This document shows, piece after piece, positions 7,790 to 27,908 of a stretch of 30,976 nucleotides of DNA. The stretch lies in IMG/VR virus record IMGVR_UViG_3300030444_000240. The stretch is one strand, 5' to 3'. Made by a program: the position numbers and the translations under genes. This DNA is from a virus (Duplodnaviria > Heunggongvirae > Uroviricota > Caudoviricetes). The notes under the pieces are model-generated. The model ran no database searches, was not told where the DNA came from, and saw only the letters and a list, made by a program, of their open reading frames with translations. Within the stretch, counting starts at the first letter, position 1. The number at the start of each line of letters is the position of its first letter.

Positions 7790-7795
7790 AATCAA

Positions 7796-9529: not shown

Positions 9530-9551
9530 GTTTCTATCTTGCTCCGTAAAA

Positions 9552-9570: not shown

Positions 9571-9587
9571 ATAGTTTCATGCTTGGA

Positions 9588-10933: not shown

Positions 10934-10980
10934 TTAGCCCGCTGCACATGGGCAGTAATATCAAATTCCAGTCCTGATAA

Positions 10981-12711: not shown

Positions 12712-12721
12712 GGGAATAGAG

Positions 12722-13201
12722 ATGACTCGAGACGATCTAGCATTCGATATTCATTATTCTTTCTTTCTTGAGAAAATGAATTACACCCTTTTAAATCGGA
12801 TAGACAAGAGCATAACTCTTGTTCTCATTGTCTTGGGCTTTTCTGTTTTTGCGCCATATAGCAATATGTTTATTTTTGGCGCATCTGTAGCTATTTTGTC
12901 GGTGCTTCAATTGGTATACCAATTTGGGCAGGAAGCTGGCTTATCAAAGGAACAGATGCGACAGTATAAAAGGTTGATTGTTGAGTTTTCCTCCCTTTCT
13001 GATGACGAACTACGCACTCGGTTTTTAAAGGTTCAAGACGCTGATAGTAATCCATGGAGATCTTTACAAGATGCTGCGTTCAAACGGACCTGTATTGCGC
13101 TGGGACGTGTTGATGAGTCAGAAATATCATTCATGCATAGCGTTATCGCATGGTTTGCTGGAGATTTGCCTCGGTCAAAAAGGTGTAATAATGACAAATA
13201 G
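12722..13201 (+). CDS. Membrane protein of unknown function (two predicted TM helices), convergent with cI
   Basis: 159 aa; hydrophobic segments ITLVLIVLGFSVFAPY and IFGASVAILSVLQLVY. Lies in the immunity region on the strand opposite the repressor, with its own putative promoter. Confidence 0.55.
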   Translation: MTRDDLAFDIHYSFFLEKMNYTLLNRIDKSITLVLIVLGFSVFAPYSNMFIFGASVAILSVLQLVYQFGQEAGLSKEQMRQYKRLIVEFSSLSDDELRTRFLKVQDADSNPWRSLQDAAFKRTCIALGRVDESEISFMHSVIAWFAGDLPRSKRCNNDK

Positions 13202-13431
13202 AATTCCCATAATCCCTAACCATGTACCTCCAAAGCCCAGACCACCATCACCAAAGTCACACAGGCTTTATGAGTATGAATTAATAATGGATTCTATATT
13301 GAGATGACCAAATGAATGCATTTATATATACATGGAAAGAGGATCATATACCCTTAAAACCTCGTCCTTCACCGCCAGAACCGAAGCCAAAATCCCGTTA
13401 AGTGTTGGGGATCTCCAGATTGTTAAAGAGC

Positions 13432-13456
13432 GAAGCGTCCTATAGGGCGCTTTTTT
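13432..13456 (+). terminator. Possible intrinsic terminator (imperfect hairpin plus T6)
   Basis: gcgtcc-tata-gggcgc followed by tttttt. Confidence 0.35.
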
Positions 13457-13573
13457 GTTGCTAACGAATCATCCTGGACTTCATATGCCCCAGGCGGCTA
13501 CTTCGTGGGCGTCCTACCTGTTCGTTGTTTCTCTTGGGTACATTATGTATCTCAAAGGTACATTGTCAAGTAT

Positions 13574-13595
13574 AAAAAAACCTGCCGAAGCAGGT
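13574..13595 (-). terminator. Intrinsic terminator directly downstream of the repressor gene
   Basis: acctgc-cgaa-gcaggt hairpin followed on the minus strand by a U7 run; 14 nt from the cI stop. Confidence 0.6.
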
Positions 13596-13608
13596 TCATA
13601 AACATTGA

Positions 13609-14283
13609 TTAGGCTTTGATTTTGTATCTTCTTGGTTTTCCTGAGAAAATCACTGTACCAATTATAGAGCAATTACCGTTGATCTTAATGTAAGGTTCAG
13701 GCCAGTTTGGGTTTAATGCTTTGAGGTAACGCTGTGTTCCATCTTCTATCAACCGCTTGAAGGTGGTTTCGCCTGTATCGTGCATCAATGCAATAACGTC
13801 GTCACCGTGGCAGGCAGGGACTTCAGGATCAACAAAAATCATGTCTCCCGGGCGGTACTCATCAATCATTGAATCACCAATCACCCGCAAGATATAAGTC
13901 ATTTCGCCACAGGGTACAGGGCAGGGGTAAGTTTCTGCTGTGCTCAAATCAACCTCAGAATAGCCAACTTCTTTCCATGCTCCGGCCTGTACCCATGATA
14001 TGACAGGGACTAACGTTATTTGTTTGTTAGTGATTGAAACATCAGGTTTTTTTGTGATGTTCGTGGTCTGGTGTTCTTGATCAAGCCATCCGACAGGCAG
14101 GTCGAAACATTTTTCGATGTGCCGCGCCATGCTGTCACCGATATTTTTAGTAGCACCATCTCCCATAAACCTGCTGGTCTGGGTTGGCTCGCGATCAATC
14201 ATAGTGGCAAAGGAAGAATTCCCGCCAACACCATCTCTCAGTTTTCTGGCGTTAGACCGCCGGATGTCATGGATTGTTTTCAT
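13609..14283 (-). CDS. CI-like prophage repressor with S24 (LexA-like) autopeptidase domain
   Basis: 224 aa; C-terminal ILRVIGDSMIDEYRPGDMIFVD ... FKRL resembles the S24 Ser/Lys dyad region. Divergent from a Cro-like gene, with palindromic operators between them. Confidence 0.85.
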   Translation of the reverse strand: MKTIHDIRRSNARKLRDGVGGNSSFATMIDREPTQTSRFMGDGATKNIGDSMARHIEKCFDLPVGWLDQEHQTTNITKKPDVSITNKQITLVPVISWVQAGAWKEVGYSEVDLSTAETYPCPVPCGEMTYILRVIGDSMIDEYRPGDMIFVDPEVPACHGDDVIALMHDTGETTFKRLIEDGTQRYLKALNPNWPEPYIKINGNCSIIGTVIFSGKPRRYKIKA

Positions 14284-14298
14284 AACGAAATTAAAACC

Positions 14299-14368
14299 CT
14301 TGTACCGTTAAGGTACAAGTATCTTGAAGGTTCATTTCAATCATGTAATATGTACACCGGAGGTACAT
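14299..14368. promoter_or_regulatory. Operator and promoter region between cI-like and cro-like genes
   Basis: Two palindromes sharing TGTAC/GGTACA half-sites: CTTGTACCGTTAAGGTACAAG (14299-14319) and ATGTACACCGGAGGTACAT (14350-14368). Confidence 0.55.
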
Positions 14369-14373
14369 ATTGT

Positions 14374-14574
14374 ATGAAAGCGTATTGGGACTCTTTAACC
14401 AAAGAACAGCAGGGCGAGTTGGCCGGAAAAGTTGGCTCAACACCTGGCTACTTACGGCTGGTTTTCAATGGCTATAAAAAAGCCAGTTTTGTGCTGGCTA
14501 AAAAACTTGAGCAATGCACGTCAGGTGCAATTACGAAATCTGACTTAAGACCGGATATCTATCCGAAAGATTAA
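14374..14574 (+). CDS. Cro-like (YdaS-type) small HTH regulator
   Basis: 66-aa ORF starting immediately after the operators (MKAYWDSLTKEQQGELAGKVGSTPGYLRLV...). The track ORF 14071-14574 overlaps cI and is an over-extension. Confidence 0.6.
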   Translation: MKAYWDSLTKEQQGELAGKVGSTPGYLRLVFNGYKKASFVLAKKLEQCTSGAITKSDLRPDIYPKD

Positions 14575-14605
14575 CAGAACACCTTCAATTTTTAACCACA
14601 GAACG

Positions 14606-15169
14606 ATGAGGCTAACCGTGGGTAAGTATCACTGGAAAGTAGAAAAACAGCCTGAGTGGTACGTGAAAGCTGTCAGAAAAACTATCGCAGCGTTGCCGGG
14701 TGGTTACGCTGAAGCAGCTGACTGGCTGGATGTAACAGAGAACGCATTATTTAACCGCCTTCGTGCCGATGGCGATCAGATTTTCCCGCTGGGATGGGCA
14801 ATGGTTTTACAGCGCGCGGCTGGCACTCACTACATTGCGGATGCTGTCGCACAGTCTGCTGGTGGGGTGTTCGTATCGCTTCCTGAAATTGAGGAAGTAG
14901 AGAACGCCGATATAAACCAGCGCCTGCTGGAAGTCATCGAACAGATCGGGAATTACTCAAAGCAGATTCGTTCGGCAATCGAAGATGGGGTCGTGGAGCC
15001 ACACGAGCAGACAGCAATTAATGATGAGTTGTATCTGTCAATTTCGAAGCTCCAGGAACATGCAGCACTGGTCTACAAAATCTTTTGCGCTCCAGAAAAG
15101 AGTGACGCCCGCGAGTGTGCAGCTCCGGGCGTCGTGGCGTTTTGTGTCTGTGGAGAAACTAACGCATGA
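14606..15169 (+). CDS. Phage early regulatory protein (CII/YdaT-like position)
   Basis: 187-aa ORF following the cro-like gene; family assignment is uncertain. Confidence 0.45.
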   Translation: MRLTVGKYHWKVEKQPEWYVKAVRKTIAALPGGYAEAADWLDVTENALFNRLRADGDQIFPLGWAMVLQRAAGTHYIADAVAQSAGGVFVSLPEIEEVENADINQRLLEVIEQIGNYSKQIRSAIEDGVVEPHEQTAINDELYLSISKLQEHAALVYKIFCAPEKSDARECAAPGVVAFCVCGETNA

Positions 15170-16002
15170 ACAGTTTAACGGCAAATAACCGTTTGTCGCA
15201 ACAGCTGGTGGTCAGTGTCGCTGAACACCTGTTGTTACGGCATGAATGCAGATTACCAAATCTCCTGGCTGTAAGTAACCACAGAGAACTTTACCTGACT
15301 GTGGGGGGCGAGTTGTGCAGGAACTTAACCGCTGGTTTCGTGACGGAAGAGGACTTTATGTTCATGTTATTCGTTGGGAGCCAGAAACACAGCGCGTTAT
15401 CTATCTTCGCAAAGACTACCCGCATGAGTGCTTTAGTCCTTTGTGGAAATTCAGGCGTGATTTTGTTGAGTGTGAAGGACCACCAGCACATTGATTCTGC
15501 CATTCCGGGACGTTACACTGTTCAGGCACCTTATAAAGCGGGTGCCGGGATTGGCGTCCTGGAATTGATCAAGGCGATATATGACGCGCCAGCGTCTTTT
15601 TTATCGTCCGCATTTGCTCACATCAAAGTTATGGTGGGCTGGGCGGGGGCATCGAAAGATGCGCCGGTTTCCTTGATCACCGGTTACGCCAACCCCGTTC
15701 AGTTCACCACCAGCGAAATTGGCGTTTCCGGTGGTGGAAGTATTTCACCGATCAAGGAGGCTGCCATCATGGCTACTGTCCCAGCCCTCACTCGTCTGAA
15801 TGATGAAGACTTACATAAACTCAGTTATGTAACAACTGCACTACGTGCTCTGCGCAAGGTAACTCTTTCGGATCCGCAGGCACATCAGGTTCTGGTAGAA
15901 ACCCTTCTTAACTTGCAAGCTGAACGTATTCGTCTGGCGGATAAGGCTAATTTTCATATTCACCGTCTCCTGAATATCAGCGGAGGGCATCGTCATGCTT
16001 AA
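15166..16002 (+). CDS. Hypothetical early ORF, possibly a composite of several small genes or frameshifted
   Basis: A 278-aa ORF, but a protein-like alternative frame runs through 15309-15480 after a G6 tract (15303-15308), and there is an internal RBS-ATG at about 15769 (AAGGAGG ... ATGGCTACT). Confidence 0.3.
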   Translation: MNSLTANNRLSQQLVVSVAEHLLLRHECRLPNLLAVSNHRELYLTVGGELCRNLTAGFVTEEDFMFMLFVGSQKHSALSIFAKTTRMSALVLCGNSGVILLSVKDHQHIDSAIPGRYTVQAPYKAGAGIGVLELIKAIYDAPASFLSSAFAHIKVMVGWAGASKDAPVSLITGYANPVQFTTSEIGVSGGGSISPIKEAAIMATVPALTRLNDEDLHKLSYVTTALRALRKVTLSDPQAHQVLVETLLNLQAERIRLADKANFHIHRLLNISGGHRHA

Positions 16003-16231
16003 TCCGTTGATCCTCAATATTTGCCGTTTGCTTCAGCGTAAAAAAACATCAATTCCTACAGTTGGGCAGTGGTACACCACGCCTGCAGGGCATGTTCTAC
16101 GTGTTAGCCTGGTTGACCGTGAATGCCAGAAGGTGATTTGTGAACCGCTGGGCCGTAATTACCGCGTCAGTATGCCGCTTATAGCCTTTCGCTCCGGAAA
16201 AAACATGAAGCATCTCGGAGGTGCAGCATGA
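15995..16231 (+). CDS. Hypothetical small protein (78 aa)
   Basis: ORF translationally coupled to its neighbours in the early-right operon. Confidence 0.4.
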   Translation: MLNPLILNICRLLQRKKTSIPTVGQWYTTPAGHVLRVSLVDRECQKVICEPLGRNYRVSMPLIAFRSGKNMKHLGGAA

Positions 16232-17046
16232 GTATGGAGCTGATGGTTAAAGCGATGAAAATTCGAGTGGGTAATCCATTGCGAAAACTGGTTCTGATCA
16301 AGCTGGCTGATAATGCCAGCGATCAGGGTGAGTGCTGGCCCAGCTACCAGCATATTGCTGACCAGTGCGAAATTAGCAAACGTTCTGTGATGAATCATAT
16401 TGCGGCCCTTTGTGAGTCCGGGCTGGTAAAAAAAGTCACCCGGAAAGGTGAAAAAGGTAACTCAAGTAATATCTATCTCCTTCATCTGGATGGTGCAGGA
16501 GATTCACTAGGGGGTAGTGCAAATAATTCACTATCTGGTGCAGCAAATTCACCAGGTAGTGCAGGAGTTGCACCAGGGGGTAGTGCAGGAGATTCACCCA
16601 GAACCAGTCACTCTTTTGAACCAGTCAAAGAACCAGTCAATGAACCAATAGCTGTTGGTGCATCTGCTGATGAGTCTGTGCGAGTTCGTTCAAACCGACC
16701 GGAATACTCTCCGGAGTTTGAGCAGGCATGGCTGGCATACCCCAAACGTGCTGGTGGCAATTCAAAATCTGCAGCCTTCAAAGCCTGGAAAGCCCGTTTG
16801 AATGAGGGGGTAAAACCCGAAACCATGCTGGAAGGTGTGAAACGCTACGCGGGCTGGGTATCTGCGATGGGTAACAGCGGCACACAATTTGTGAAACAGG
16901 CTGTCACGTTCTTTGGCCCGGATCGTCATTTCGAAGAGTCCTGGGAAGTTCCTGCGGTATCTGCAGCCAGACGCGAGGACCCGTACTTCAAAGCCAGTTA
17001 CGACAACGTGGACTACAGCCAGATCCCGGCAGGATTCAGGGGGTGA
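16228..17046 (+). CDS. Replication initiator-like protein (N-terminal winged-helix/HTH) with embedded iteron-like repeats
   Basis: N-terminal LVLIKLADNASDQGECWPSYQHIADQCEISKRSVMNHIAAL resembles replication-protein HTH domains; a central low-complexity linker is encoded by tandem DNA repeats. Confidence 0.6.
   Translation: MSMELMVKAMKIRVGNPLRKLVLIKLADNASDQGECWPSYQHIADQCEISKRSVMNHIAALCESGLVKKVTRKGEKGNSSNIYLLHLDGAGDSLGGSANNSLSGAANSPGSAGVAPGGSAGDSPRTSHSFEPVKEPVNEPIAVGASADESVRVRSNRPEYSPEFEQAWLAYPKRAGGNSKSAAFKAWKARLNEGVKPETMLEGVKRYAGWVSAMGNSGTQFVKQAVTFFGPDRHFEESWEVPAVSAARREDPYFKASYDNVDYSQIPAGFRG
16491..16598. repeat. Iteron-like tandem direct repeats (candidate origin of replication)
   Basis: About five imperfect copies of GGT(A)GTGCA-N-ATTCAC(T/C) within the initiator gene, analogous to ori lying inside lambda O. 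Confidence 0.45.
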
Positions 17047-17534
17047 TCATGAGTCTGTTAAATGACGTTCAGAAATTCATTGAAGCCCATCCGGGGTGTA
17101 CTTCCGGAGACATTGCGGATGCTTTTGCAGGTTACTCACGGCAGCGCGTTCTGCAGTCAGCAAGCAAGTTACGTCAGAGTGGGCGTGTGGCTCACCGTTG
17201 TGAAGGAGATACACGCAGACATTTCCCACGCCTGACTGAGAGAGCGCAGGAGCCGGAACCACAACCAGTTCGTGAAACCAGACCTGTGCGCAATTTCTAT
17301 GTCGGCACTAACGATCCCCGGGTGATTTTGTTGACCCGCCAGGCGGAAGAACTGGAGTCCAGGGGCTTATACCGTCGTGCTGCAACGGTGTGGATGGCGG
17401 CATTCCGTGAAAGCCACTCCCAGCCAGAACGAAACAATTTTCTGGCGCATCGTGAGCGGTGCTTACGGAAAAGCAGCAAGCGCGCTGCATCGGGTGAAGA
17501 GTGGTATCTGTCAGGGAATTACGTGGGGGCTTAA
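17043..17534 (+). CDS. Hypothetical protein; C-terminal region resembles PerC/ANR-type regulators
   Basis: 163 aa; ELESRGLYRRAATVWMAAF resembles the PerC-family core as recalled. Low confidence. Confidence 0.4.
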   Translation: MIMSLLNDVQKFIEAHPGCTSGDIADAFAGYSRQRVLQSASKLRQSGRVAHRCEGDTRRHFPRLTERAQEPEPQPVRETRPVRNFYVGTNDPRVILLTRQAEELESRGLYRRAATVWMAAFRESHSQPERNNFLAHRERCLRKSSKRAASGEEWYLSGNYVGA

Positions 17535-18187
17535 TGAGTAATAAATATTGCCAGGCGCTGGTGGAGCTGCGGAACAAACCAGCCCATGAACTGAAGGAAG
17601 TGGGCGATCAGTGGCGCACGCCGGACAACATTTTCTGGGGAATTAACACCCTGTTTGGCCCGTTTGTTCTGGATCTGTTTACTGATGGTGATAACGCCAA
17701 ATGTGCCGCTTATTACACTGCGGAAGACAACGCGCTGGCGCATGACTGGTCAGAACGTCTTGCGGAGCTTAAAGGTGCTGCCTTTGGTAATCCCCCGTAC
17801 AGCCGCGCCAGTCAGCATGAGGGGCAATACATCACCGGCATGCGTTACATCATGAAACATGCCAGTGCTATGCGTGATAAAGGCGGGCGCTATGTTTTCC
17901 TGATCAAAGCTGCCACCAGCGAAGTGTGGTGGCCGGAAGATGCAGACCATATTGCTTTTATTCGCGGGCGTATTGGTTTTGAACTGCCAGCCTGGTTTAT
18001 CCCGAAGGACGAGAAGCAGGTGCCGACAGGCGCTTTCTTCGCTGGTGCTATTGCTGTTTTCGACAAGACCTGGAAGGGACCGGCAATCAGCTACATCGGG
18101 CGCGATGAACTTGAGGCATGTGGTGAGGCCTTTCTGGTGCAGGTTCGCCAGCAGGCGGAAAAACTGGTCAGGGAGATGGCGGCATGA
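17534..18187 (+). CDS. Phage-type DNA N6-adenine methyltransferase
   Basis: FGNPPYSRA (NPPY catalytic motif). Start set at MSNKYCQ, whose ATG overlaps the upstream stop (TAATG); the track ORF starts at 17501. Confidence 0.8.
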   Translation: MSNKYCQALVELRNKPAHELKEVGDQWRTPDNIFWGINTLFGPFVLDLFTDGDNAKCAAYYTAEDNALAHDWSERLAELKGAAFGNPPYSRASQHEGQYITGMRYIMKHASAMRDKGGRYVFLIKAATSEVWWPEDADHIAFIRGRIGFELPAWFIPKDEKQVPTGAFFAGAIAVFDKTWKGPAISYIGRDELEACGEAFLVQVRQQAEKLVREMAA

Positions 18188-18507
18188 CGACATTAACTCA
18201 ATGCCAGCAGCAGGTGCTGGATATGCTGATTTCTTACCAGAAAGAACGTGGCTTCCCGCCAACCAATCAGGAGGTGGCAACCATGCTGGGATACCGTTCA
18301 GTGAATGCAGCAGTGGAGCATCTTCGCGCACTGGAGAAAAAAGGCGTCATCACGATAAAGCGTGGCGTGGCCCGGGGGATAACGCTTCATACCGCGGTGA
18401 AGGACGACAGCGAGGCGGTCGGGATTATCCGCTCACTGCTTGCCGGTGAGGAAAACGCAAGGCTGCGTGCAACCCACTGGTTACATGAGAGAGGCCTGAA
18501 AGCATGA
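18184..18507 (+). CDS. LexA-family N-terminal DNA-binding domain protein
   Basis: 107 aa: QQQVLDMLISYQKERGFPPTNQEVATMLGYRSVNAAVEHLRALEKKGVI resembles the LexA winged-helix domain; no peptidase domain. Confidence 0.6.
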   Translation: MTTLTQCQQQVLDMLISYQKERGFPPTNQEVATMLGYRSVNAAVEHLRALEKKGVITIKRGVARGITLHTAVKDDSEAVGIIRSLLAGEENARLRATHWLHERGLKA

Positions 18508-18893
18508 AGCTGATCCTGCCTTTTCCGCCCAGCGTGAACACGTACTGGCGACACCCCAACAAAGGGGCGTTTGCAGGTAAGAGCCTGATAAGCGCGGCGG
18601 GGCGAAAATTCCAGAGCGCGGCGTGTGCAGCAATAGTTGAGCAGTTACGTCGTCTGCCAAAACCAACGTCGGCACCTGCTTCAGTGGAGATCGTGTTGTT
18701 TCCTCCGGATAACCGGATCCGCGATCTGGACAACTATAACAAGGCGCTGTTTGACGCCCTGACCCACGCGGGTGTGTGGGAGGACGACAGTCAGGTGAAA
18801 AGAATGCTGGTGGAGTGGGGACCGGTTATCCCGGAAGGGAAGGTCGAGATCACTATCAGTAAGTACGAGAAAACGGCGGGTGCAGCCGCCTGA
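18504..18893 (+). CDS. rusA: RusA-like Holliday junction resolvase
   Basis: 129 aa; PPSVNTYWRH ... DLDNYNKALFDALTHAGVWEDDSQV matches the RusA pattern with conserved acidic residues. Confidence 0.8.
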   Translation: MKLILPFPPSVNTYWRHPNKGAFAGKSLISAAGRKFQSAACAAIVEQLRRLPKPTSAPASVEIVLFPPDNRIRDLDNYNKALFDALTHAGVWEDDSQVKRMLVEWGPVIPEGKVEITISKYEKTAGAAA

Positions 18894-18912
18894 TTAAGAG
18901 GAGAAACGAAGT

Positions 18913-19722
18913 ATGAATAATCTGATGGTCATTGATGGTATTGAAGTTCGTCGTGATGCTTATGGGCGTTACAGCCTGAACGATCTGCATCGCGCAGCAG
19001 TAGCATCTGGTGCAAATGCCAGAACCAAGGAGCCGGGAAAGTTTCTTTCCAGCCAACAAACTGTTGAGCTTGTTCATGAATTGACCAACACCCAGAATTT
19101 GGGTGTTGACCCGGTGAGTGTGATTCATGGGGGAAATGAACGGGGAACGTATGTCTGCAAGGAACTGGTGTATGCCTATGCAATGTGGATCAGCCCGTCA
19201 TTCCATCTGAAGGTGATCCGTACTTTCGATATGGTAACCAGCGCACCGGAAAAATTATCCGGACAGGCTGCTGACAAGATGCAGGCTGGCGTGATCCTGC
19301 TGGACTTTATGCGCCGGGAGTTAAACCTGTCTAACTCTTCAGTGCTTGGTGCCTGTCAGAAACTCCAGGAGGCTGTTGGCTTACCGAATCTGGCACCGCG
19401 CTATGCCATTGATGCTCCTGCTGATGCACACGATGGCTCAAGTCGCCCGACACTGTCACTGAGTGCACTGCTGAAACAGTATGGTATCCGCCTGACGGCT
19501 AATCAGGCATATCACCAGATGGTGAAACTGGGGATCGTCGAGCAGCGCGAACGATACAGCCGTACCGCGATTAACAACATCAAAAAATTCTGGTCGCTGA
19601 CAGCGAAAGGTTGCATGTTCGGCAAGAACATCACCAGTCCCGCAAATCCGCGCGAGACGCAGCCGCATTTCTTCGAATCCCGATTCCCTGAGCTGTTAAA
19701 GCTGCTCGATACCGTTCATTGA
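18913..19722 (+). CDS. KilA-N domain protein
   Basis: N-terminal MNNLMVIDGIEVRRDAYGRYSLNDLHRAA is typical of KilA-N; C-terminal domain unassigned. Confidence 0.65.
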   Translation: MNNLMVIDGIEVRRDAYGRYSLNDLHRAAVASGANARTKEPGKFLSSQQTVELVHELTNTQNLGVDPVSVIHGGNERGTYVCKELVYAYAMWISPSFHLKVIRTFDMVTSAPEKLSGQAADKMQAGVILLDFMRRELNLSNSSVLGACQKLQEAVGLPNLAPRYAIDAPADAHDGSSRPTLSLSALLKQYGIRLTANQAYHQMVKLGIVEQRERYSRTAINNIKKFWSLTAKGCMFGKNITSPANPRETQPHFFESRFPELLKLLDTVH

Positions 19723-20719: not shown

Positions 20720-20736
20720 TTTTGTGGAGAAAGTTG

Positions 20737-21114
20737 ATGCGTGATATTCAGATGGTTCTGGAGCGTTGGGGAGCATGGGCGGCTAATAATCATGAAGATG
20801 TGACCTGGTCGTCCATTGCCGCCGGTTTTAAGGGATTAATTCCTTCAAAAGTAAAATCTCGCCCGCAATGTTGTGACGATGACGCGATGATCATTTGCGG
20901 GTGCATGGCCCGTCTGAAAAAGAACAACAGCGATTTGCACGATTTATTGGTGGACTATTATGTCGGCGGCATGACTTTTATGGCGCTTGCACGTAAGCAT
21001 GGGCGATCTGATTGTTGGGTTGGCAGGATGCTCCAGAAAGCTGAGGGCGTAGTGGAGGGTATGCTGATGGTGTTGGATCTCCGATTGGAGATGGATGCTG
21101 ATTGTTCGAAATAA
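20737..21114 (+). CDS. Late-gene antiterminator Q-like protein
   Basis: Last gene of the early-right operon, immediately followed by a tR'-type terminator; Cys-rich ([12 protein letters not shown]). Start set at the ATG (MRDIQ); the track uses a TTG at 20722. Confidence 0.7.
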
Positions 21115-21269: not shown

Positions 21270-21794
21270 TTATTGTTTAACCCATAATAATTCATTGACA
21301 TTGAATCCCAACTTTTGAGCGGTTCGCACATAGTCTGCTTTTACTTTATCTGGAATAGTTGGGGTCCTTGCCAGAATCCATAGGTATTCTCTGTTCGGAC
21401 CACTGACAAGAGCATACTTATACTCATCATCCAGTTTGATTACATTATAGCCACCATAGAAGGGGCCAAAAAACGAAACCTTCAACGCTGCAGTTTTAGT
21501 ATCTCCAGTAAAGTATGCTTTACCTTCGCTCTCGCTCCATTTATTTTTCGTTGGATCGTATCCACGGTTAAGTACACGAATCCCTCCGTCGTTCCGTTTT
21601 CCATAAGTAGCGCTGACCTGTTCCAGACCACGTTCGAACCGGTTCTCGAGGCGAGCTATTTCATACCACTTTCCGAGGTAGCGGTTGGCGTCAAAATTTG
21701 TAATCGGCTGCACACCTTTAGGTGGTGTCGGGGCCTTACATGCTATAAGAGTGAAAGAGAGTGCAATGCCAGTCAACACAGGCCATAACTTCAT
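21270..21794 (-). CDS. blc: Bacterial lipocalin (Blc-like) outer-membrane lipoprotein
   Basis: Signal peptide with lipobox (LIAC); NFDANRYLGKWYEIARLENRFERG and KVSFFGPFYGGYNVI match Blc as recalled. Confidence 0.85.
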   Translation of the reverse strand: MKLWPVLTGIALSFTLIACKAPTPPKGVQPITNFDANRYLGKWYEIARLENRFERGLEQVSATYGKRNDGGIRVLNRGYDPTKNKWSESEGKAYFTGDTKTAALKVSFFGPFYGGYNVIKLDDEYKYALVSGPNREYLWILARTPTIPDKVKADYVRTAQKLGFNVNELLWVKQ

Positions 21795-21986
21795 AATAAA
21801 TCCTGTACTTTTGATAGTTGAGAGTAAGTATGAAAGATAGATGATTACGACCGATCACTTAAAGAACTTTCATACTATATTAGGAATAGTCCATAACAGA
21901 AAAATTGTCAGTGATGACGCCAGAAAGGCAATTTATTCCGTGCACTACACAGTTTATGTGTTAATGAATTAGTCAAGGGGGAGGAT

Positions 21987-22946
21987 ATGATAAAAAAACC
22001 TGTGATTGGAATCAGCGGTTGTCTGGCCGGTTCTGCTGTTCGTTTTGATGGTGGTCACAAAAGAGCTGACTTTTTAATGGACAAATTAGTGGAATGGGTA
22101 ACATTCAGACCAGTATGTCCGGAAATGGCTATAGGGCTGCCAGTTCCGCGTCCTGCTCTACGTCTTGTGCGCTCGACGCAAGGAAATATTCGGATGTGTT
22201 TCAGCCACGACCAGAATGAGGATGTGACAGAGAGAATGACAGAGTTTAGTCGTTCTTATATGGACAAATTAAAGGATGTATCGGGGTTTGTGGTTTGTGC
22301 TAAATCTCCCAGCTGTGGCATGGAGCGCGTGCGTGTCTATGATGAAAATGGTAATCGAGGTCGTAAAGATGGAGTGGGACTATTTACGAGCACTTTGATG
22401 GAAAAGTTTTCCTGGCTACCGGTTGAAGAGGATGGGCGATTACATGATCCAGTGCTTCGTGAGAATTTTGTTGAAAGAGTTTTTGCTTTGCATGAGCTCA
22501 ATCACCTTTACAAGGAGAAATTATCAAGAAGAGAGTTATTAGCTTTTCATAGTCGTTATAAGCTTCAGTTGTTGGCGCATAGTCAGGCAGGCTATAAAGA
22601 TATGGGACCATTTGTGGCTGCAATACACGAGTGGGCGGACCTTGAATCATACTTTGAGGTGTATCGTGATAAGCTGATGGCGATTCTCAGAAAACCTGCA
22701 TCACGTAAAAATCACACGAATGTGCTGATGCATATACAGGGGTATTTTAGTAACTACTTAAGTACACGCCAGCGTAAAGAGTTGAGCGAGGTTATACTTA
22801 ACTATCGTTCTGGCACATTACCTCTTCTTGCGCCGTTGACTCTGCTGAAGCATTATCTGGGTGAGTATCCTAATGATTACTTGCTTACACAGAATTACTT
22901 CGATCCCTATCCGGACGAACTGGCTCTAAGACTGATGGTAAATTAA
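21987..22946 (+). CDS. DUF523/DUF1722 fusion protein (YbbK/YbgA-like; DUF523 resembles TudS-type desulfidases)
   Basis: 319 aa with N-terminal Cys residues (GISGCLAG, VCPE, SCGMERV); GGAGG RBS upstream. Family assignment from memory. Confidence 0.6.
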   Translation: MIKKPVIGISGCLAGSAVRFDGGHKRADFLMDKLVEWVTFRPVCPEMAIGLPVPRPALRLVRSTQGNIRMCFSHDQNEDVTERMTEFSRSYMDKLKDVSGFVVCAKSPSCGMERVRVYDENGNRGRKDGVGLFTSTLMEKFSWLPVEEDGRLHDPVLRENFVERVFALHELNHLYKEKLSRRELLAFHSRYKLQLLAHSQAGYKDMGPFVAAIHEWADLESYFEVYRDKLMAILRKPASRKNHTNVLMHIQGYFSNYLSTRQRKELSEVILNYRSGTLPLLAPLTLLKHYLGEYPNDYLLTQNYFDPYPDELALRLMVN

Positions 22947-23297
22947 TTGTATGCGATATCATCCAAAAGGATGAGTTCCTGCATGCAGGATATTTACAAT
23001 CGTAAAAACTACACTATGATACCCAGAGTGTCAGTTTGTATAAAAACTCTGTTTACGCTGAAGAAACCATTGAGATGCAACTTAAAGTTGGTAAACATGC
23101 CAGTCAAAATATATAATATTATGATTCCACGCAGCTATATATAATATAACAGATTGGTTTAATAATTTGTCTTTGTGAGTTAAATACATAATTTTATACT
23201 TGTGATGCAATGAGATTTTCCTTATTGTTGAACTGGCGAATATTGATTTTCCACCTATACTTACCTGGTGTAACCCCAATGATATCAGGTGGATAAT

Positions 23298-24024
23298 ATG
23301 CCATACATATGTTCTATCATTTTGGTGTTGAACTCGTTTGATGTCCGAATTGGTAAAGAAGATATTTTATTTAAAAAAGGAAGTGCTGTTCTCATTGATT
23401 ACAATTTAAAAGATTTTTTTTTCATCAAATATAGATCATGCAATGATCGTAGATGTTGAAGAGAAAACAGTTAATGATTTCTTTAAAAGCAACACACTCT
23501 CACCTTTTTCTGTAAGAAGGTTTTATCCGGCATACTTGATGGTGGAATGTGAAGATTTTTCATTGTTAAAGAACTTGATTGCATGCTTGAATTGTGATGG
23601 CAGAACTGTGGATTTTGTTAGAAATCAAATATCACTTGCATGTCTTGCTATCTTATCTTCAGAGAAAATAGTGCAAAGTTTTTTATTTGGATGTCTTAAT
23701 AGTTTAGGAAGTAAAGTTAAGGCTATTATTCACACGGATATATCTGCAGCATGGAGACTTTGTGATATATCTTCAAGACTGTATCTGAGTGAAAGTCTGT
23801 TAAAAGGAAAATTAAAGCACGAAGGCTTATCATTTAGTAAGTTAATTCTTGAAGAGCGAATGGTGATGGCGGAAAGGTTATTAAGCTACAATTTATATTC
23901 TGTTGGAAAAGTTACTGAGATATGCGGTTATGAAAACACGTCATATTTTGTAAGTGTTTTCAGAAGATATTTTGGTGTTCCTCCCCATCAATATTCATCA
24001 AGATTTTTTTTAGAAAAGACATGA
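23298..24024 (+). pseudogene. AraC-family regulator gene interrupted by a frameshift at a T9 tract
   Basis: N-terminal frame (23298-23453) MPYICSIILVLNSFDVRIGKED... and C-terminal frame (23443-24024) with an AraC HTH region (FRRYFGVPPHQY) align to the intact paralog at 29997-30749; the frames meet at T9 (23414-23422), and T8 would restore one ORF. Confidence 0.6.
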
Positions 24025-24217
24025 TGTAACGTGATGCGTTTTAATGATTTTGTAATTTTCGTATTTGATAATTGTATGATGCTTTCAGCTACGCCAGAAT
24101 AATCGCTGGCGTTTTTCTTTTTGAATAGATGTTCAAGCCTTACGCTAATGTAACTTCTATACCTTTCCTCTTCGTTCCGAACCGTGTACACCATCCGTTA
24201 TTTGCGGAGGTGAGGCT

Positions 24218-24433
24218 ATGAAATCCATGGATAAGTTAACAACGGGCATTGCCTACGGCACCTCCGCAGGCAGTGCTGGCTACTGGTTTTTACAGCTGCT
24301 CGATAAAGTCACGCCCTCACAGTGGGCAGCAATAGGTGTGCTGGGTAGCTTGGTATTTGGCCTGCTGACGTACCTGACAAACCTTTATTTCAAGATTAAA
24401 GAAGATAAGCGCAAGGCTGCACGGGGAGAGTAA
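24218..24433 (+). CDS. Phage-21-type class II holin (pinholin, S21-like)
   Basis: [26 protein letters not shown]...[19 protein letters not shown] closely matches S21 as recalled, including the dual-start MKSM motif. Confidence 0.85.
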
Positions 24434-24437
24434 TTCA

Positions 24438-24752
24438 ATGACTCAAAACTATGAACTGATTGTGAAAGGGATCCGCAATTTTGAGAATAAAGTTACGGTA
24501 ACTTTAGCGTTACGGGACAAAAAACGCTTTGACGGTGAAATTTTTGACCTGGACATCTCGCTGGACCGTGTTGAAGGTGCCGCGCTGGAGTTTTATGAGG
24601 CAGCAGCCAGAAGGAGCATCAGACAGGTCTTCCTGGATGTTGCTGCCGGGTTATGTGAAGGGGACGAGCTGTTGCCAGAAACGCGCCCCTGTTCAGAGGC
24701 GCGGTATACCATAAAAATTAACAGTTCAGATAACTCGATTACGGGTTGTTAG
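24438..24752 (+). CDS. Hypothetical protein (104 aa) inserted between holin and endolysin
   Basis: ORF with no recognisable motif; its position is unusual for a lysis cassette. Confidence 0.45.
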   Translation: MTQNYELIVKGIRNFENKVTVTLALRDKKRFDGEIFDLDISLDRVEGAALEFYEAAARRSIRQVFLDVAAGLCEGDELLPETRPCSEARYTIKINSSDNSITGC

Positions 24753-24988
24753 CCTTTTGTTTCAGTTGGTTTTCCAATATCTTTCATTGGTAGCAACATT
24801 TCCAGATTGCTTTTGATATATGGATTATTTACATGTTCATTTAATTGATGAATGATTCCATTTTTTTCATTCTGGTCCAATACGGTAAATATTACTGTAA
24901 TCATATATTTAAGAGCTTCAATTTCTTTTGCTGTTGATGCAGGAGATGAGCAGTCAGCTGTAATATTGATAAAAACTTCTTTTTGCAT
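24749..24988 (-). CDS. Hypothetical protein (79 aa), AT-rich, antisense to the lysis operon
   Basis: ORF only; low-GC by eye. Confidence 0.3.
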   Translation of the reverse strand: MQKEVFINITADCSSPASTAKEIEALKYMITVIFTVLDQNEKNGIIHQLNEHVNNPYIKSNLEMLLPMKDIGKPTETKG

Positions 24989-25122
24989 ATCAAATCCTCA
25001 GATGGGGTAGCCCAGCCTGCATCCCCCATAATCCTTAACCAGAGCGCCAGTGTCCTACCACTGACGGGCTGAATGCTTAACATATCCAGGGTTCAGAAAC
25101 CGATAAATCCTGATAAATATCC

Positions 25123-25656
25123 ATGAACGTAAAAATCAGATACAGCCTGTCGGCTGCTGTTCTGGCACTGATTGCCGCCAGTGCTCCTGCACCTGACATT
25201 CTCGATCAGTTTCTTGATGAAAAAGAGGGGAATCACACCACTGCATACCGCGATGGCTCCGGCGTATGGACCATCTGTCGGGGAGCAACGATGGTGGACG
25301 GTAAACCTGTTATTCCGGGAATGAAACTGTCGAAGGAAAAATGCGCCCAGGTTAACGCCATTGAGCGGGATAAGGCGCTGGCATGGGTGGAGCGCAATAT
25401 AAAAGTTCCACTGACCGAGCCACAGAAAGCCGGTATCGCGTCATTCTGTCCCTATAACATTGGCCCTGGTAAGTGTTTTCCGTCGACGTTTTATAAGCGG
25501 CTTAATGCCGGTGATCGTAAAGGCGCATGCGAGGCGATTCGCTGGTGGATAAAGGACGGTGGACGTGATTGCCGTATTCGTTCAAATAATTGTTACGGTC
25601 AGGTTATTCGTCGTGACCAGGAGAGTGCATTAACCTGCTGGGGGATAGACCAGTGA
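25123..25656 (+). CDS. SAR endolysin (lysozyme-like, R21-type)
   Basis: N-terminal Ala-rich signal-anchor-release segment [15 protein letters not shown]; E-x8-D-x5-T catalytic triad spacing ([16 protein letters not shown]). Confidence 0.85.
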
Positions 25657-26156
25657 GCCTGTGCTCCCAGCTTATTGTTGCCGCGGTACTAGTGACCAGT
25701 GCGTTTATCGCTGGAAATATATGGTGTAGCCGCGGTTGGGAAAAAAAGTGGGCGGAACGTGACAGCGCGGAATCATCGCAAACAGCGAACGCGCAGACCG
25801 CAGCCCGCATGATTGAACAAGGGCGCATAATTGCCCGTGATGAGGCTGTAAAAGATGCACAAGCACAAGCAGCTAAATCTGCTGCCACTGCTGCTGGCCT
25901 GTCTGCCACTGTTAACCAGCTGCGCACCGAAGCAACAAAGCTTGCCGCCCGCCTGGACGCCGCAAAGCACACCGCAGATCTTGCCGCTGCCGTCAGAAGC
26001 AAAACAGCCGGAGCCGACGCCGCAGTGCTCGCCGACATGCTCGGCCGCCTTACAGAAGAAGCTCGATATTATGCTGAGCGATCTGACGAAAGCTACCGGG
26101 CTGGAATGACGTGTGAGCGCGTTTATGAGTCGGTGAGGACATCAAATTACAATTGA
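25653..26156 (+). CDS. Rz: Rz-like i-spanin
   Basis: N-terminal TM helix, Ala/Gln-rich coiled-coil-like body; start overlaps the endolysin stop. Confidence 0.7.
25855..26109 (+). CDS. Rz1: Rz1-like o-spanin lipoprotein embedded in the +1 frame of Rz
   Basis: Signal peptide with lipobox LLTSC followed by a Pro-rich mature region; nested in Rz as expected. Confidence 0.6.
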
Positions 26157-26251: not shown

Positions 26252-26944
26252 TTATTCAATGGCATCTAAAATTTCATATGCTTCATTAACAAAATCTCTT
26301 ATTTCTTTTAGACATAACTCTACAAAAGGAATGACCTCATAATCTGTACCGTGGAATCTTATTTTTTTCTCTTCGGTTATGTTAATATTGATGGGGATTC
26401 CGTTCCCTGATTTTTCAACTTTACCATTTTCAATGGTGAAGTCTTCAATTCTCTGTCCATTGGTGAAATTATCTCTGAAAATGATTTTTGATGTAGCATC
26501 TGTCTTAATTAATCCAAACCCATTGATATTAACATCTATTCCTCGAACAATACTATCTTCACTCAATGGGATTGGTTTCCTATGTTTTACTTCGTTCGTG
26601 AGGTTACACATCATTCCAAGCCAGTTATTACCAGTTTGATAGTCTTGGATTGAAACAAAAACTGCATATAATGGAGATAATTCAGGTTGCTGGCAGTTTA
26701 ATTTTTTAATAAAGAAAGCATCTAAAAATTTTTTCTCGCCGTATGGGAAATAAATTTTTGGCCGAGGGGTTGATTGGTTAGTGGTATGTTTTTCATAACT
26801 ATCATTCGCAACGTATTCTAATGCGCTTCTTAAATTTTCAAGTATTGATTTAACCTTTACTGGTTTTATTTGTTGCGTATCTTTTAATATTTCAACGGTT
26901 TCTTCAACTTCTTGCAATAAATCTAACGTTCCTTCTCTGGACAT
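26252..26944 (-). CDS. Hypothetical protein (230 aa), AT-rich moron between the lysis cassette and cos
   Basis: ORF of unknown family in low-GC DNA, opposite in orientation to the flanking phage genes. Confidence 0.5.
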   Translation of the reverse strand: MSREGTLDLLQEVEETVEILKDTQQIKPVKVKSILENLRSALEYVANDSYEKHTTNQSTPRPKIYFPYGEKKFLDAFFIKKLNCQQPELSPLYAVFVSIQDYQTGNNWLGMMCNLTNEVKHRKPIPLSEDSIVRGIDVNINGFGLIKTDATSKIIFRDNFTNGQRIEDFTIENGKVEKSGNGIPININITEEKKIRFHGTDYEVIPFVELCLKEIRDFVNEAYEILDAIE

Positions 26945-27059: not shown

Positions 27060-27287
27060 CTCATTTACGGGTCCTTTCCGGCGATCCGGGCTGTTACGGG
27101 GCGGCGACCTCGCGGGTTTTCGCTATTTATGAAAATTTTCCGGTTTAAGGCATTTCCGTTCTTCTTCGTTGTAACTTAATGTTTTTATTTAAAATACCCC
27201 CTGAAAAGAAAGGAAACGACAGGTGCTGAAAACGAGCTTTTGGGCCTCTGTCGTTTCCTTTCTCTGTTTTTGGCCGTGGAATGAACA
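27060..27287 (+). other. Lambda-type cos site (cosQ-cosN-cosB); cohesive-end sequence GGGCGGCGACCT at 27099-27110
   Basis: ACGGGTCCTTTCCGG...GTTACGGGGCGGCGACCTCGCGGGTTTTCGCTATTTATGAAAATTTTCCGGTTTAAGGC matches the joined lambda ends as recalled, directly upstream of the Nu1 start. Confidence 0.8.
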
Positions 27288-27908
27288 ATGGAAGTCAACA
27301 AAAAGCAGCTGGCTGACATTTTCGGTGCGAGTATCCGTACCATTCAGAACTGGCAGGAACAGGGAATGCCCGTTCTGCGAGGCGGTGGCAAGGGTAATGA
27401 GGTGCTTTATGACTCTGCCGCCGTTATAAAATGGTATGCCGAAAGGGATGCTGAAATTGAGAACGAAAAGCTGCGCCGGGAGGTTGAAGAACTGCGCCAG
27501 GCCAGCGAGGCAGATCTCCAGCCAGGGACTATTGAGTACGAACGCCATCGACTTACGCGTGCGCAGGCCGACGCACAGGAACTGAAGAATGCCAGAGACT
27601 CCGCTGAAGTGGTGGAAACCGCATTCTGTACTTTCGTGCTGTCGCGGATCGCAGGTGAAATTGCCAGTATTCTCGACGGGATCCCCCTGTCGGTGCAGCG
27701 GCGTTTTCCGGAACTGGAAAACCGACATGTTGATTTCCTGAAACGGGATATCATCAAAGCCATGAACAAAGCAGCCGCGCTGGATGAACTGATATTGGTG
27801 CTCATACGCACTCCGTTGCGATTGGTTCACATGGACATACCATCACCGTTAACGCTGCTGGTAACGCGGAAAACACCGTCAAAAACATCGCATTTAACTA
27901 TATTGTGA
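27288..27908 (+). pseudogene. nu1: Terminase small subunit Nu1, 3'-truncated and fused out of frame to the 3' end of a tail fiber gene
   Basis: MEVNKKQLADIFGASIRTIQNWQEQGMPVLRGGGKGNEVLYDSAAVIKWY... matches lambda Nu1 to about residue 169 (AAALDELI); from about 27794 the DNA matches the stf 3' end read in another frame. Confidence 0.8.

What the first reader, a model, noticed from the sequence alone, without database searches (positions are those of the whole stretch)
24438..24988. Extra ORFs inserted between the pinholin and the SAR endolysin
Phage-21-type lysis cassettes, as I recall, have S directly followed by R. Here a 104-aa ORF (same strand) and an AT-rich 79-aa antisense ORF separate them by about 690 bp. 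A gene co-transcribed with the holin could modulate lysis timing or be a late-expressed moron.
Basis: partly seen in the sequence, partly recalled or inferred. Interest (0 to 1): 0.5.

Follow-up and report, generated by a model that had tools for sequence, protein, structure and literature searches.

The report
Known ydfR gene in lysis cassette
The two "extra" genes between the phage's membrane-hole protein and its cell-wall enzyme are an already catalogued E. coli prophage gene (ydfR, present in about 80% of complete E. coli genomes, function still unsettled) and a rarer small swap-in gene on the opposite strand, so the layout is ordinary.

Summary
S21-type pinholin 24218-24433, a 104-aa ORF 24438-24752 (+), a 79-aa AT-rich ORF 24749-24988 (-), then the SAR endolysin 25123-25656, Rz and Rz1.

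The 104-aa ORF is YdfR (Pfam DUF1327, E 5e-39). This is the gene between essQ and rrrQ in the K-12 Qin prophage. The same S-ydfR-R order occurs in plaque-forming phages (Perceval, H-19B, Stx1/Stx2c phages; mEp460, from memory), in 101 of 438 phage records with this holin type, and ydfR DNA is in 4348 of 5426 complete E. coli genomes. It is an optional, known component, not a new insertion.

Its function is unsettled. A 2026 paper reports that K-12 YdfR residues 1-72 (82% identical here) bind the RNase E catalytic half and co-purify with RNA.

The 79-aa ORF is a real but orphan gene (phrog_21218; dN/dS 0.21; 103 of 5426 genomes). It lies in a recombinational cargo slot between ydfR codon 84 and the last ~80 nt before R. 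Four DNA-unrelated cassettes can fill this slot, and each carries one antisense small ORF. mEp460-type cassettes are deletion derivatives.

Low novelty. The cargo slot is the only modestly new point.

The parts
24218..24433 (+). S21-type pinholin gene (71 aa, dual start Met1/Met4, two hydrophobic segments, basic C-terminal tail). It is 99% identical to DLP12 EssD.
   Evidence: PF04971 E 2.2e-35; phrog_20/9876 holin; 70/71 identical to EssD.
24423..24430 (+). Shine-Dalgarno sequence GGGGAGAG inside the last codons of S. It serves whichever gene follows S: ydfR here and in Qin, R in the S-R direct cassettes.
   Evidence: Junction alignment: S stop + 4 nt + ATG in the window, Qin and Stx2a_F723. 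Its function as a ribosome-binding site is inferred.
24438..24752 (+). ydfR (DUF1327), 104 aa, acidic (pI 4.85), no membrane segment. Codons 1-84 (24438-24689) are the conserved domain. Codons 85-104 (24690-24752) are a swappable tail.
   Evidence: PF07041 E 5.1e-39; phrog_2735 E 3.5e-55; 69% identical to K-12 YdfR overall and 59/72 in residues 1-72; identical to RefSeq WP_000193273.1 'YdfR family protein'; AlphaFold2 model of three strands plus one long helix, with the tail disordered; hydropathy.
24690..25044 (.). Variable cassette 'A' in the ydfR-R cargo slot. It holds the YdfR tail codons, the antisense 79-aa gene and the 56 nt upstream of that gene. It is replaced by unrelated DNA in other phages and is largely deleted in mEp460-type cassettes.
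   Evidence: Shared breakpoints at window 24689 on the left and 25045-25113 on the right. The mEp460 deletion spans roughly 24796-25107. Window 24678-25124 recurs at 88% identity upstream of a different lysis cassette (L010-L012).
24749..24988 (-). 79-aa orphan gene (phrog_21218), 30% G+C, soluble, predicted to be helical. It is convergent with ydfR (overlapping stop codons) and divergent from R. GAGGA lies 6 nt before its ATG.
   Evidence: phrog_21218 E 9.1e-57; RefSeq hypothetical protein WP_032264896; 8 protein clusters, all E. coli; dN/dS 0.21, specific to this frame; low-confidence three-helix model, pLDDT 62; no Pfam, NCBIfam, PADLOC or PDB match.
24989..25122 (.). Spacer between the antisense gene and R. 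The R-proximal ~80 nt (25045-25122) is conserved wherever an upstream cassette is present. mEp460-type phages lack all but the last 16 nt, so it is dispensable for R. It possibly holds the leftward promoter and leader of the antisense cargo genes.
   Evidence: Alignments. No promoter reached consensus threshold. Folding is no better than shuffles. No Rfam hit. The promoter role is inferred only.
25123..25656 (+). SAR endolysin of the RrrQ type (177 aa, 8 Cys, E35/D44/T50). It is not the R21/RrrD type.
   Evidence: PF00959; 92% identical to RrrQ and 35% to RrrD; N-terminal hydrophobic peak at residues 9-27.
25653..26156 (+). Rz-type i-spanin (DUF2514), with the Rz1-type o-spanin lipoprotein gene embedded at 25855-26109 in the +1 frame.
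   Evidence: PF10721 E 1.2e-47; phrog_312 and phrog_11621 Rz-like spanins; same layout as rzpQ/rzoQ.

Best explanation
This is the standard 'Qin-type' lysis cassette of E. coli lambdoid prophages. Its order is S21-type pinholin, YdfR (DUF1327), an optional cargo slot, RrrQ-type SAR endolysin, then Rz/Rz1.

Shown:
- The 104-aa ORF is a YdfR orthologue under purifying selection.
- It always starts 4 nt after the holin stop codon and takes over the ribosome-binding site that R uses in S-R direct cassettes. It is therefore made from the Q-dependent late transcript together with S.
- It is an acidic soluble protein with a three-strand-plus-helix core (residues ~1-75). That core is the only constant part.
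- It is dispensable for lysis as such, because most phages with this holin lack it.

Inferred mechanism: YdfR is a late-expressed cytoplasmic accessory factor that acts on host RNA metabolism. Like K-12 YdfR, it binds the catalytic half of RNase E and/or RNA through the conserved N-domain. It is not a part of the hole-forming or wall-degrading machinery.

The 79-aa ORF is a separate gene. It is the cargo of one of at least four interchangeable, DNA-unrelated cassettes that recombine between ydfR codon 84 and the last ~80 nt before R. Each cassette carries one small soluble ORF transcribed against late transcription. It is probably expressed on its own, moron-style. What it does is unknown.

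The identity and architecture are near certain. The RNase E/RNA mechanism deserves about one chance in three.
For: Identity:
- Pfam and PHROG hits.
- 100% DNA match to annotated E. coli S43, which names 'YdfR family protein' and 'hypothetical protein'.
- 69% identity to K-12 YdfR.
- The Qin gene order.

Ubiquity:
- 4348 of 5426 genomes, 8603 places.
- 101 of 438 phage records with this holin.
- The carriers include H-19B, BP-4795, Stx2-86, mEp460 and Perceval.

Fixed position: in about 90 loci YdfR lies 4 nt after an S21-type holin and before an RrrQ-type endolysin. The exceptions are an IS insertion, a deletion fusion, one locus with another holin family, and a few loci with no holin or no endolysin hit, some of them at contig ends.

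Late-gene behaviour: in LF82, the Perceval YdfR gene (PERCE_61) is near background like S and R, and it rises with them in macrophages.

Selection: dN/dS is 0.25-0.45 for codons 1-72.

Fold and solubility.

Cargo slot.

orf79 as a real gene.
Against: The RNase E data come from overexpression and two-hybrid assays with the K-12 cryptic-prophage copy. In that study, overproduced YdfR changed few transcripts, and the authors could not exclude that a contaminant retained the RNA. Nothing has been tested in a phage infection.

The strict coupling of ydfR to one holin type and one endolysin type argues for a lysis-linked role as much as for an RNA role.

For the antisense gene, no promoter reaches consensus and no expression data exist, because the ORF is not in the LF82 table. 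Most cassettes with this YdfR tail have lost it, so it is dispensable.
Confidence: 0.6

Rival explanations
1. YdfR is a lysis-timing modulator. As a soluble cytoplasmic protein made with the pinholin, it binds the basic cytoplasmic tail of S21 (or the membrane-tethered SAR endolysin) and delays or sharpens triggering. This would work like the cytoplasmic antiholin partner RIII of T4 or LydB of P1.
For: - There is a fixed 4-nt junction with an S21-type holin in nearly all of about 90 loci, always upstream of the RrrQ-type endolysin.
- The gene is optional, as lysis regulators typically are: 101 of 438 records.
- YdfR is acidic (net charge -4.5) while the holin is basic (+3.5, tail [13 protein letters not shown]).
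- A Keio ydfR mutant scored in an envelope-integrity screen, as cited by PMC13232886.
- Inserting ydfR moves R from a strong ribosome-binding site to one with no visible Shine-Dalgarno sequence. That by itself could change the S:R ratio.
Against: - There is no sequence or profile similarity to any known antiholin or lysis regulator.
- One locus pairs YdfR with a different holin family, PF16080.
- Overproducing YdfR in K-12 gave no growth phenotype.
- The Keio phenotype may be a polar effect of the kan cassette on the downstream SAR endolysin rrrQ (my inference).
- The S21 family already has its own antiholin, from the dual start.
Confidence: 0.25
2. ydfR and the antisense ORF form a polymorphic two-gene module, analogous to colicin / antisense-immunity / lysis operons. 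The variable C-terminal part of YdfR would be an effector released at lysis. The antisense small protein, made constitutively in the lysogen, would be its cognate neutraliser.
For: The layout is a conserved N-domain, a variable C-terminus and an adjacent variable small gene on the opposite strand, followed by lysis genes. Four cassette types pair a particular tail with a particular antisense ORF: 104 aa + orf79, 114 + orf92, 183 + orf88, 268 + orf104. The tail and orf79 travel together into another phage context.
Against: No toxin, immunity or defence domain is found in any tail or antisense ORF. The window tail is only 20 residues and is predicted to be disordered. The commonest form (mEp460 type) keeps the tail but has deleted the antisense gene without apparent harm. 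The Qin and Stx1 types have no antisense ORF. The tail/ORF pairing is fully explained by physical linkage within one cassette.
Confidence: 0.05
3. The 79-aa antisense ORF is not a gene. It is an open frame in AT-rich filler DNA between ydfR and R that annotation pipelines call by default.
For: - It has no family with a known function, and only 8 protein clusters, all from E. coli.
- No promoter match was found.
- The structure model is low-confidence.
- It is truncated to 48 aa in one lineage and deleted in most cassettes.
- 2% of shuffles give an equally long open frame.
Against: - dN/dS is 0.21 against a copy with dS 0.59. It is the only one of six frames free of stops in both copies, with an excess of third-position changes.
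- Full length is kept at 78-97% amino-acid identity in several lineages.
- A good GAGGA ribosome-binding site lies 6 nt before the ATG (sequence).
- Three other unrelated cassettes in the same slot also carry one antisense ORF each, each with its own PHROG family.
Confidence: 0.12

Closest known systems
Qin cryptic prophage lysis cassette of E. coli K-12 (essQ-ydfR-rrrQ-rzpQ/rzoQ)
   Same: The gene order and families are the same: holin 93% identical, YdfR 69% overall (82% in residues 1-72), endolysin 92%, and Rz with an embedded Rz1. The S stop + 4 nt + ATG junction is also the same.
   Different: In Qin, ydfR (103 aa) has a different tail and its stop overlaps the rrrQ start, so there is no cargo cassette and no antisense ORF.
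Escherichia phage Perceval (active prophage of AIEC strain LF82)
   Same: It is the only phage record that covers the whole S-ydfR-orf79-R stretch (94.9% nucleotide identity). YdfR is 100% identical and orf79 99%. It produces virions and plaques (PMC9928086).
   Different: Perceval is a complete phage with porin and bor morons around the cassette. The window copy lies in a prophage whose structural genes are deleted. The antisense ORF is not annotated in the Perceval record.
Phage 21 / DLP12-type cassette (S21-R21-Rz21; essD-rrrD-rzpD)
   Same: The pinholin family is the same (EssD 99% identical), it has the dual start, and Rz/Rz1 are embedded.
   Different: S is directly followed by R (1-nt overlap) and there is no ydfR. 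The endolysin is the 165-aa R21/RrrD type, only 35% identical to the one here. The phage 21 record itself was not retrieved; DLP12 and Stx2a_F723 stood in for it.
Antisense morons beside lambdoid lysis genes (for example bor downstream of Rz)
   Same: It is a small gene on the strand opposite to late transcription, with atypical composition, present or absent between otherwise similar phages.
   Different: bor lies outside the cassette, after Rz, and has a known product (a lipoprotein). orf79 lies inside the cassette, between ydfR and R. It has no signal sequence or lipobox, and no expression data exist.
Phage proteins that target RNase E (T4 Srd, T7 gp0.7, phiKZ Dip) - from my own knowledge
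   Same: If the K-12 result carries over, YdfR would be another phage-borne binder of RNase E. Like Srd, it would bind the N-terminal catalytic half (for YdfR).

Membership tests
YdfR / DUF1327 (PF07041) | Match to the family profile above the curated cut-off, over the full domain | tested here: met
   132.8 bits against a cut-off of 25; residues 1-96 align to profile positions 1-90 of 93. phrog_2735 E 3.5e-55.
YdfR / DUF1327 (PF07041) | Genomic position: directly after an S21-type holin gene and before an RrrQ-type endolysin gene in a lambdoid late region | tested here: met
   Window order; Qin; about 90 loci.
YdfR / DUF1327 (PF07041) | Small soluble protein with a conserved ~75-85-residue N-domain and a variable tail | tested here: met
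   Alignment; model with strands at 5-14, 18-27 and 34-43 and a helix at 50-73; maximum 19-residue hydropathy 0.75.
YdfR / DUF1327 (PF07041) | Binding to the N-terminal half of RNase E and to RNA (reported for K-12 YdfR only) | not testable with these tools
   PMC13232886. The window protein is 59/72 identical over the binding fragment.
Pinholin / SAR-endolysin lysis cassette (phage 21 type) | Class II holin of the S21 family with a dual-start motif | tested here: met
   PF04971 E 2.2e-35. The sequence begins MKSMDK, with Met1 and Met4.
Pinholin / SAR-endolysin lysis cassette (phage 21 type) | Endolysin with an N-terminal signal-arrest-release segment and the E-8-D-5-T lysozyme triad | tested here: met
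   Residues 9-27 are weakly hydrophobic and Ala/Ser-rich. E35, D44 and T50 were read from the translation. PF00959. Export and release were not tested.
Pinholin / SAR-endolysin lysis cassette (phage 21 type) | Endolysin orthologous to R21/RrrD, and S immediately followed by R | tested here: not met
   The endolysin is 35% identical to RrrD and 92% to RrrQ. S and R are separated by 689 nt holding two genes.
Moron (autonomously expressed prophage cargo gene) - for the 79-aa ORF | Atypical composition, and presence or absence between otherwise homologous phages | tested here: met
   30% G+C against 47-51% for neighbours. It is replaced or deleted in related cassettes. It is in 103 of 5426 genomes, against 4348 for ydfR.
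Moron (autonomously expressed prophage cargo gene) - for the 79-aa ORF | Own promoter and terminator; transcription in the lysogen independent of the lytic programme | tested here: inconclusive
   No sigma-70 consensus match on the minus strand of 24989-25122. The only weak candidates are TTTATC-17-TATGTT and AGGACA-17-GATTAT, found by eye. The ORF is absent from the LF82 expression table.
Moron - for ydfR | Transcription in the lysogen well above the prophage background | tested here: not met
   PERCE_61 and the Tritos ydfR are near background, like S and R, and are not in the paper's moron list (data from PMC9928086).
Known antiholins / lysis regulators; anti-phage defence systems | Profile similarity to a described family | tested here: not met
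   Neither ORF has any Pfam, NCBIfam, PHROG 'lysis' or PADLOC match. Neither has a PDB sequence match or a significant fold match.

The most novel reading that the evidence does not exclude
YdfR is a phage-encoded RNase E/RNA-binding factor deliberately placed between holin and endolysin. There it tunes processing or translation of the lysis mRNA, and hence lysis timing and, in Stx phages, toxin release. The adjoining slot, with its four unrelated antisense small genes, would be a dedicated exchange site for lysogen-expressed partners or modulators of that factor.
Probability: 0.1. Interest if true: 0.6.

Novelty: already known. Interest (0 to 1): 0.22.

Why it matters
As a finding, it mainly corrects a recollection. 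S-R adjacency holds for DLP12 and the Stx2a phages (phage 21 itself from memory). The S-ydfR-R form is at least as familiar in E. coli, including K-12.

What is still open is the function of a gene carried by about 80% of E. coli genomes and by most Stx1a and Stx2c phage records here. It sits immediately downstream of stx and next to the genes that release the toxin. The recent RNase E/RNA-binding report makes that function testable in a phage for the first time.

The cargo slot between ydfR and R is a small addition to the map of where lambdoid phages keep exchangeable genes.

Tried and rejected
- RNA element in the insert or spacer. There are no tRNA or tmRNA genes. There is no Rfam match apart from a chance-level RsaJ hit at E 0.84. 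The spacer folds no better than shuffles on either strand. Rejected.
- Defence system. PADLOC gave no hit for YdfR, orf79, the other antisense ORFs or the long YdfR variants. Rejected as far as 2023 models can tell.
- Homology among the four antisense ORFs. They share 13-22% identity and fall in four separate PHROG families. No evidence of common origin.
- Giant repeat proteins that hit YdfR in the representative search (P0157, P0167). They are Ig/cadherin-repeat proteins and were treated as composition or repeat artefacts.
- Distant YdfR relatives outside Enterobacteriaceae. Only 60 representatives were found in 1.84 billion proteins. Only 8 species-level genome loci were found, all Escherichia or Shigella apart from two evident bin contaminants.
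- The 143-aa protein of L010 as a divergent YdfR. The profile match covers only the helix and the shared tail. Not accepted.
- Literature searches on essQ/b1555 and the Stx-phage lysis-cassette papers gave nothing on ydfR. The envelope screen cited for ydfR does not mention it in its main text.

Full report
**Observation**

- 71-aa holin: 24218-24433 (+).
- 104-aa ORF: 24438-24752 (+).
- 79-aa ORF: 24749-24988 (-). Its stop codon overlaps the stop of the 104-aa ORF.
- 177-aa endolysin: 25123-25656 (+).
- Rz: 25653-26156, with Rz1 embedded at 25855-26109.

The S stop and the R start are 689 nt apart. The flanking identifications hold:
- The holin matches PF04971 (phage 21 holin S, E 2e-35) and has the Met1/Met4 dual start.
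- The endolysin matches PF00959. It has a weakly hydrophobic Ala/Ser-rich N-terminus and the E35-D44-T50 spacing.

The antisense ORF is a 30% G+C island in a 47-51% background.

**What the 104-aa ORF is**

It matches Pfam DUF1327 at 132.8 bits against a cut-off of 25, and phrog_2735 at E 3.5e-55. The stretch 24150-25700 is 100% identical to the chromosome of E. coli S43. There RefSeq annotates 'phage lysis protein EssD', 'YdfR family protein', 'hypothetical protein', 'lysozyme' and 'DUF2514 protein'.

The K-12 Qin prophage has the same order, essQ-ydfR-rrrQ-rzpQ/rzoQ. The window protein is 69% identical to K-12 YdfR, and 59/72 identical over residues 1-72.

**How common it is**
- DNA of the conserved part of ydfR is found in 4348 of 5426 complete E. 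coli genomes, at 8603 places.
- In the phage collection, 438 records encode this holin type and 101 of them encode YdfR.
- The carriers include H-19B, where the ORF lies unannotated in the 400-nt 'gap' between S and R.
- They also include BP-4795, Stx2-86, mEp460, 2H10 and Perceval.
- Perceval has an identical YdfR and a 99% identical antisense ORF. It is an active prophage of strain LF82 that yields virions and plaques (PMC9928086).
- The family is narrow. There are 260 clusters at 90% identity and 60 representatives at 50% identity among 1.84 billion proteins. It is essentially confined to Escherichia/Shigella, with an occasional Salmonella member.

**Is 'S directly followed by R' the norm?**

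It is one of two common forms.
- In DLP12, essD and rrrD overlap by one base.
- In Stx2a phage F723, S and an RrrQ-type R are 4 nt apart.
- In the window and in Qin, the gene 4 nt after S is ydfR instead.

In all three junctions the purine-rich GGGGAGAG/GAGGAGAG sits inside the last codons of S. So ydfR takes over the ribosome-binding site that R uses in the direct form. R then starts after ...GATAAATATCC, with no visible Shine-Dalgarno sequence.

The window holin is 99% identical to EssD. The endolysin, however, is the RrrQ type (92% identical), not the R21/RrrD type (35%).

In about 90 loci from genomes and viral contigs, YdfR lies 4 nt after an S21-type holin and upstream of an RrrQ-type endolysin. 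The exceptions are:
- an IS insertion (L026);
- a deletion fusion (L067);
- one locus in which the holin belongs to PF16080;
- a few loci with no holin or no endolysin hit, some of them at contig ends.

**Anatomy of the ydfR-R interval**

Pairwise comparison of ten versions gives a clear pattern.
- Constant: ydfR nucleotides 1-252 (codons 1-84; window 24438-24689) and the last 19-81 nt before the R start codon.
- Variable: everything in between, which is swapped or deleted.

Four cassettes have no DNA similarity to one another:

| Cassette | Example | YdfR length | Antisense ORF | PHROG family |
|---|---|---|---|---|
| A | window | 104 aa (20-codon tail) | orf79 | phrog_21218 |
| B | L092 | 114 aa | orf92 | phrog_2411 |
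| C | 2H10 | 183 aa | orf88 | phrog_2572 |
| D | Stx2-86 | 268 aa | orf104 | phrog_1853 |

Each antisense ORF starts about 100-135 nt from the R start.

Shorter forms have no antisense ORF (mEp460, vB_EcoS-689R5, Stx1 phages, Qin). The mEp460 form keeps 45 nt of the 3' end of orf79 next to a 312-nt deletion. It is therefore derived from the window form, not ancestral to it. It is also the majority form among cassettes with this YdfR tail.

Cassette A is mobile. Window 24678-25124 recurs at 88% identity upstream of a Phage_holin_8 / holin_3_7 / Peptidase_M15_4 lysis cassette. There orf79 is cut to 48 aa, and the same 20-residue tail ends an otherwise different 143-aa protein.

**Is the 79-aa ORF a gene?**

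Probably yes.
- A copy with 79% nucleotide identity (L009) keeps the full frame.
- dS is 0.59, dN is 0.12 and dN/dS is 0.21.
- It is the only one of the six frames without stops in both copies.
- The differences fall 13/7/21 at codon positions 1/2/3.
- GAGGA lies 6 nt before the ATG.
- Only 2% of shuffles give as long an open frame.

It is nevertheless an orphan.
- It has 8 protein clusters, all from E. coli, and is in 103 of 5426 genomes.
- It has no Pfam, NCBIfam, PADLOC or PDB match.
- The three-helix model is low-confidence (pLDDT 62) and has no structural neighbour.
- No promoter reaches consensus, and the spacer has no unusual RNA structure.
- The LF82 expression table does not include it, because it was not annotated.

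**What YdfR may do**

The protein is acidic (pI 4.85) and has no membrane segment. The AlphaFold2 model has three antiparallel strands and a long helix over residues 5-73 (block-mean pLDDT 72-89), followed by a disordered tail. Codons 1-72 are under purifying selection, with dN/dS 0.25-0.45.

In LF82 lysogens, both ydfR copies (Perceval PERCE_61 and the Tritos ydfR) are near background, like S and R. They rise together with S in macrophages, and they are not among the morons the authors list. This fits a late gene.

The only direct functional data are from Gopel et al. 2026 (PMC13232886).
- K-12 YdfR residues 1-72 were recovered in a two-hybrid screen.
- The full-length protein signals with RNase E(1-597).
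- RNase E(1-598) co-elutes with Strep-YdfR.
- DNase-resistant nucleic acid co-purifies.
- However, overproduction changed few transcripts, and the authors do not exclude a contaminant for the RNA.

I therefore commit, at about one chance in three, to a late cytoplasmic accessory factor that acts on RNase E/RNA. The main rival, at about one in four, is a lysis-timing modulator acting on the pinholin or endolysin.

The envelope phenotype of the Keio ydfR mutant is cited in that paper from Paradis-Bleau et al. 2014; the gene is not mentioned in that paper's main text. The phenotype may simply reflect read-through from the kan cassette into the SAR endolysin rrrQ. That is my inference.

**Context**

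The cassette lies in a defective prophage. A Q antiterminator is at about 20722-21114. It is followed by three cargo genes (antisense lipocalin, YbgA-family, AraC-type regulator) and a terminator-like hairpin just before S. After Rz come an antisense AT-rich 230-aa gene, then a truncated DNA-packaging gene fused to a truncated tail-fibre gene. The morphogenesis genes are therefore gone. All lysis-cassette reading frames are intact.

**Verdict**

It is wrong in treating the arrangement as unusual.

The feature is already known and annotated. Its function is an open but modest question. The only addition here is the description of the ydfR-R interval as a recombinational cargo slot with four unrelated antisense small genes.

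Noticed in passing
window 21270-24217: The Q-to-S interval carries three cargo genes: an antisense lipocalin (21270-21794), a YbgA-family DUF523+DUF1722 / 2-thiouracil-desulfurase-like gene (21987-22946), and an AT-rich AraC-type HTH gene (23443-24024). The AraC-type gene is 193 aa here, against 241 aa annotated in strain S43; reading from the S43 start gives 2 stop codons in the window.
   Followed up: partly
window 24091-24122: A strong terminator-like hairpin (ACGCCAG...CTGGCGT followed by a T-run) lies about 100 nt before the S start codon. Late transcription into the lysis cassette would have to read through it, as expected for Q-modified polymerase.
   Followed up: no
window 26252-26944 (-): An antisense 230-aa gene with 32% G+C and unknown function (phrog_13652, E 1e-106) sits directly after Rz, where bor sits in DLP12, Perceval and Stx2a_F723. 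It has no Pfam or defence-model match beyond a chance-level BrxC hit.
   Followed up: partly
window ~27100-27900 (S43 annotation, L001 9139-9707): A truncated DNA-packaging gene is fused to a truncated tail-fibre gene, so all head and tail genes of this prophage are deleted while the lysis cassette stays intact. The left part of the window (1-19400) does not match S43 and resembles other prophages (tail fibre, integrase).
   Followed up: partly
phage collection: YdfR presence tracks the Stx phage type. Of records with this holin type, YdfR is in 41 of 47 'Stx1a-converting', 15 of 17 'Stx2c-converting' and only 2 of 124 'Stx2a-converting' records. This is confounded with phage lineage, but it concerns the genes that release the toxin.
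   Followed up: no
window 25108-25125 versus 24423-24440: R in this cassette has no visible Shine-Dalgarno sequence. ydfR occupies the strong site embedded in the 3' end of S that R uses in S-R direct cassettes. Carrying ydfR may therefore lower R translation relative to S, whatever YdfR itself does.
   Followed up: partly
L010-L012 (E. coli prophages), 2860-3667: Cassette A (YdfR-type tail, truncated orf79 and the R-upstream spacer) lies upstream of a completely different lysis cassette (Phage_holin_8, Phage_holin_3_7, Peptidase_M15_4). The 143-aa gene that ends in the shared tail matches the YdfR profile only over the helix and tail (hhalign probability 95.8).
   Followed up: partly
proteins P0010, P0013, P0055, P0110: A few database proteins combine the holin domain PF04971 and DUF1327 in one chain (139-175 aa). 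They are either S-YdfR fusions made by small deletions at the 4-nt junction, or sequencing or annotation errors.
   Followed up: no
L009 (Logan SRR25569688 contig), 2337-3978: This is a divergent copy of the whole module (YdfR 65%, orf79 79%, endolysin 70% identical). It follows a holin of another family (PF16080, 102 aa) after a 121-nt gap, and is the only case seen where YdfR is not coupled to an S21-type holin.
   Followed up: partly
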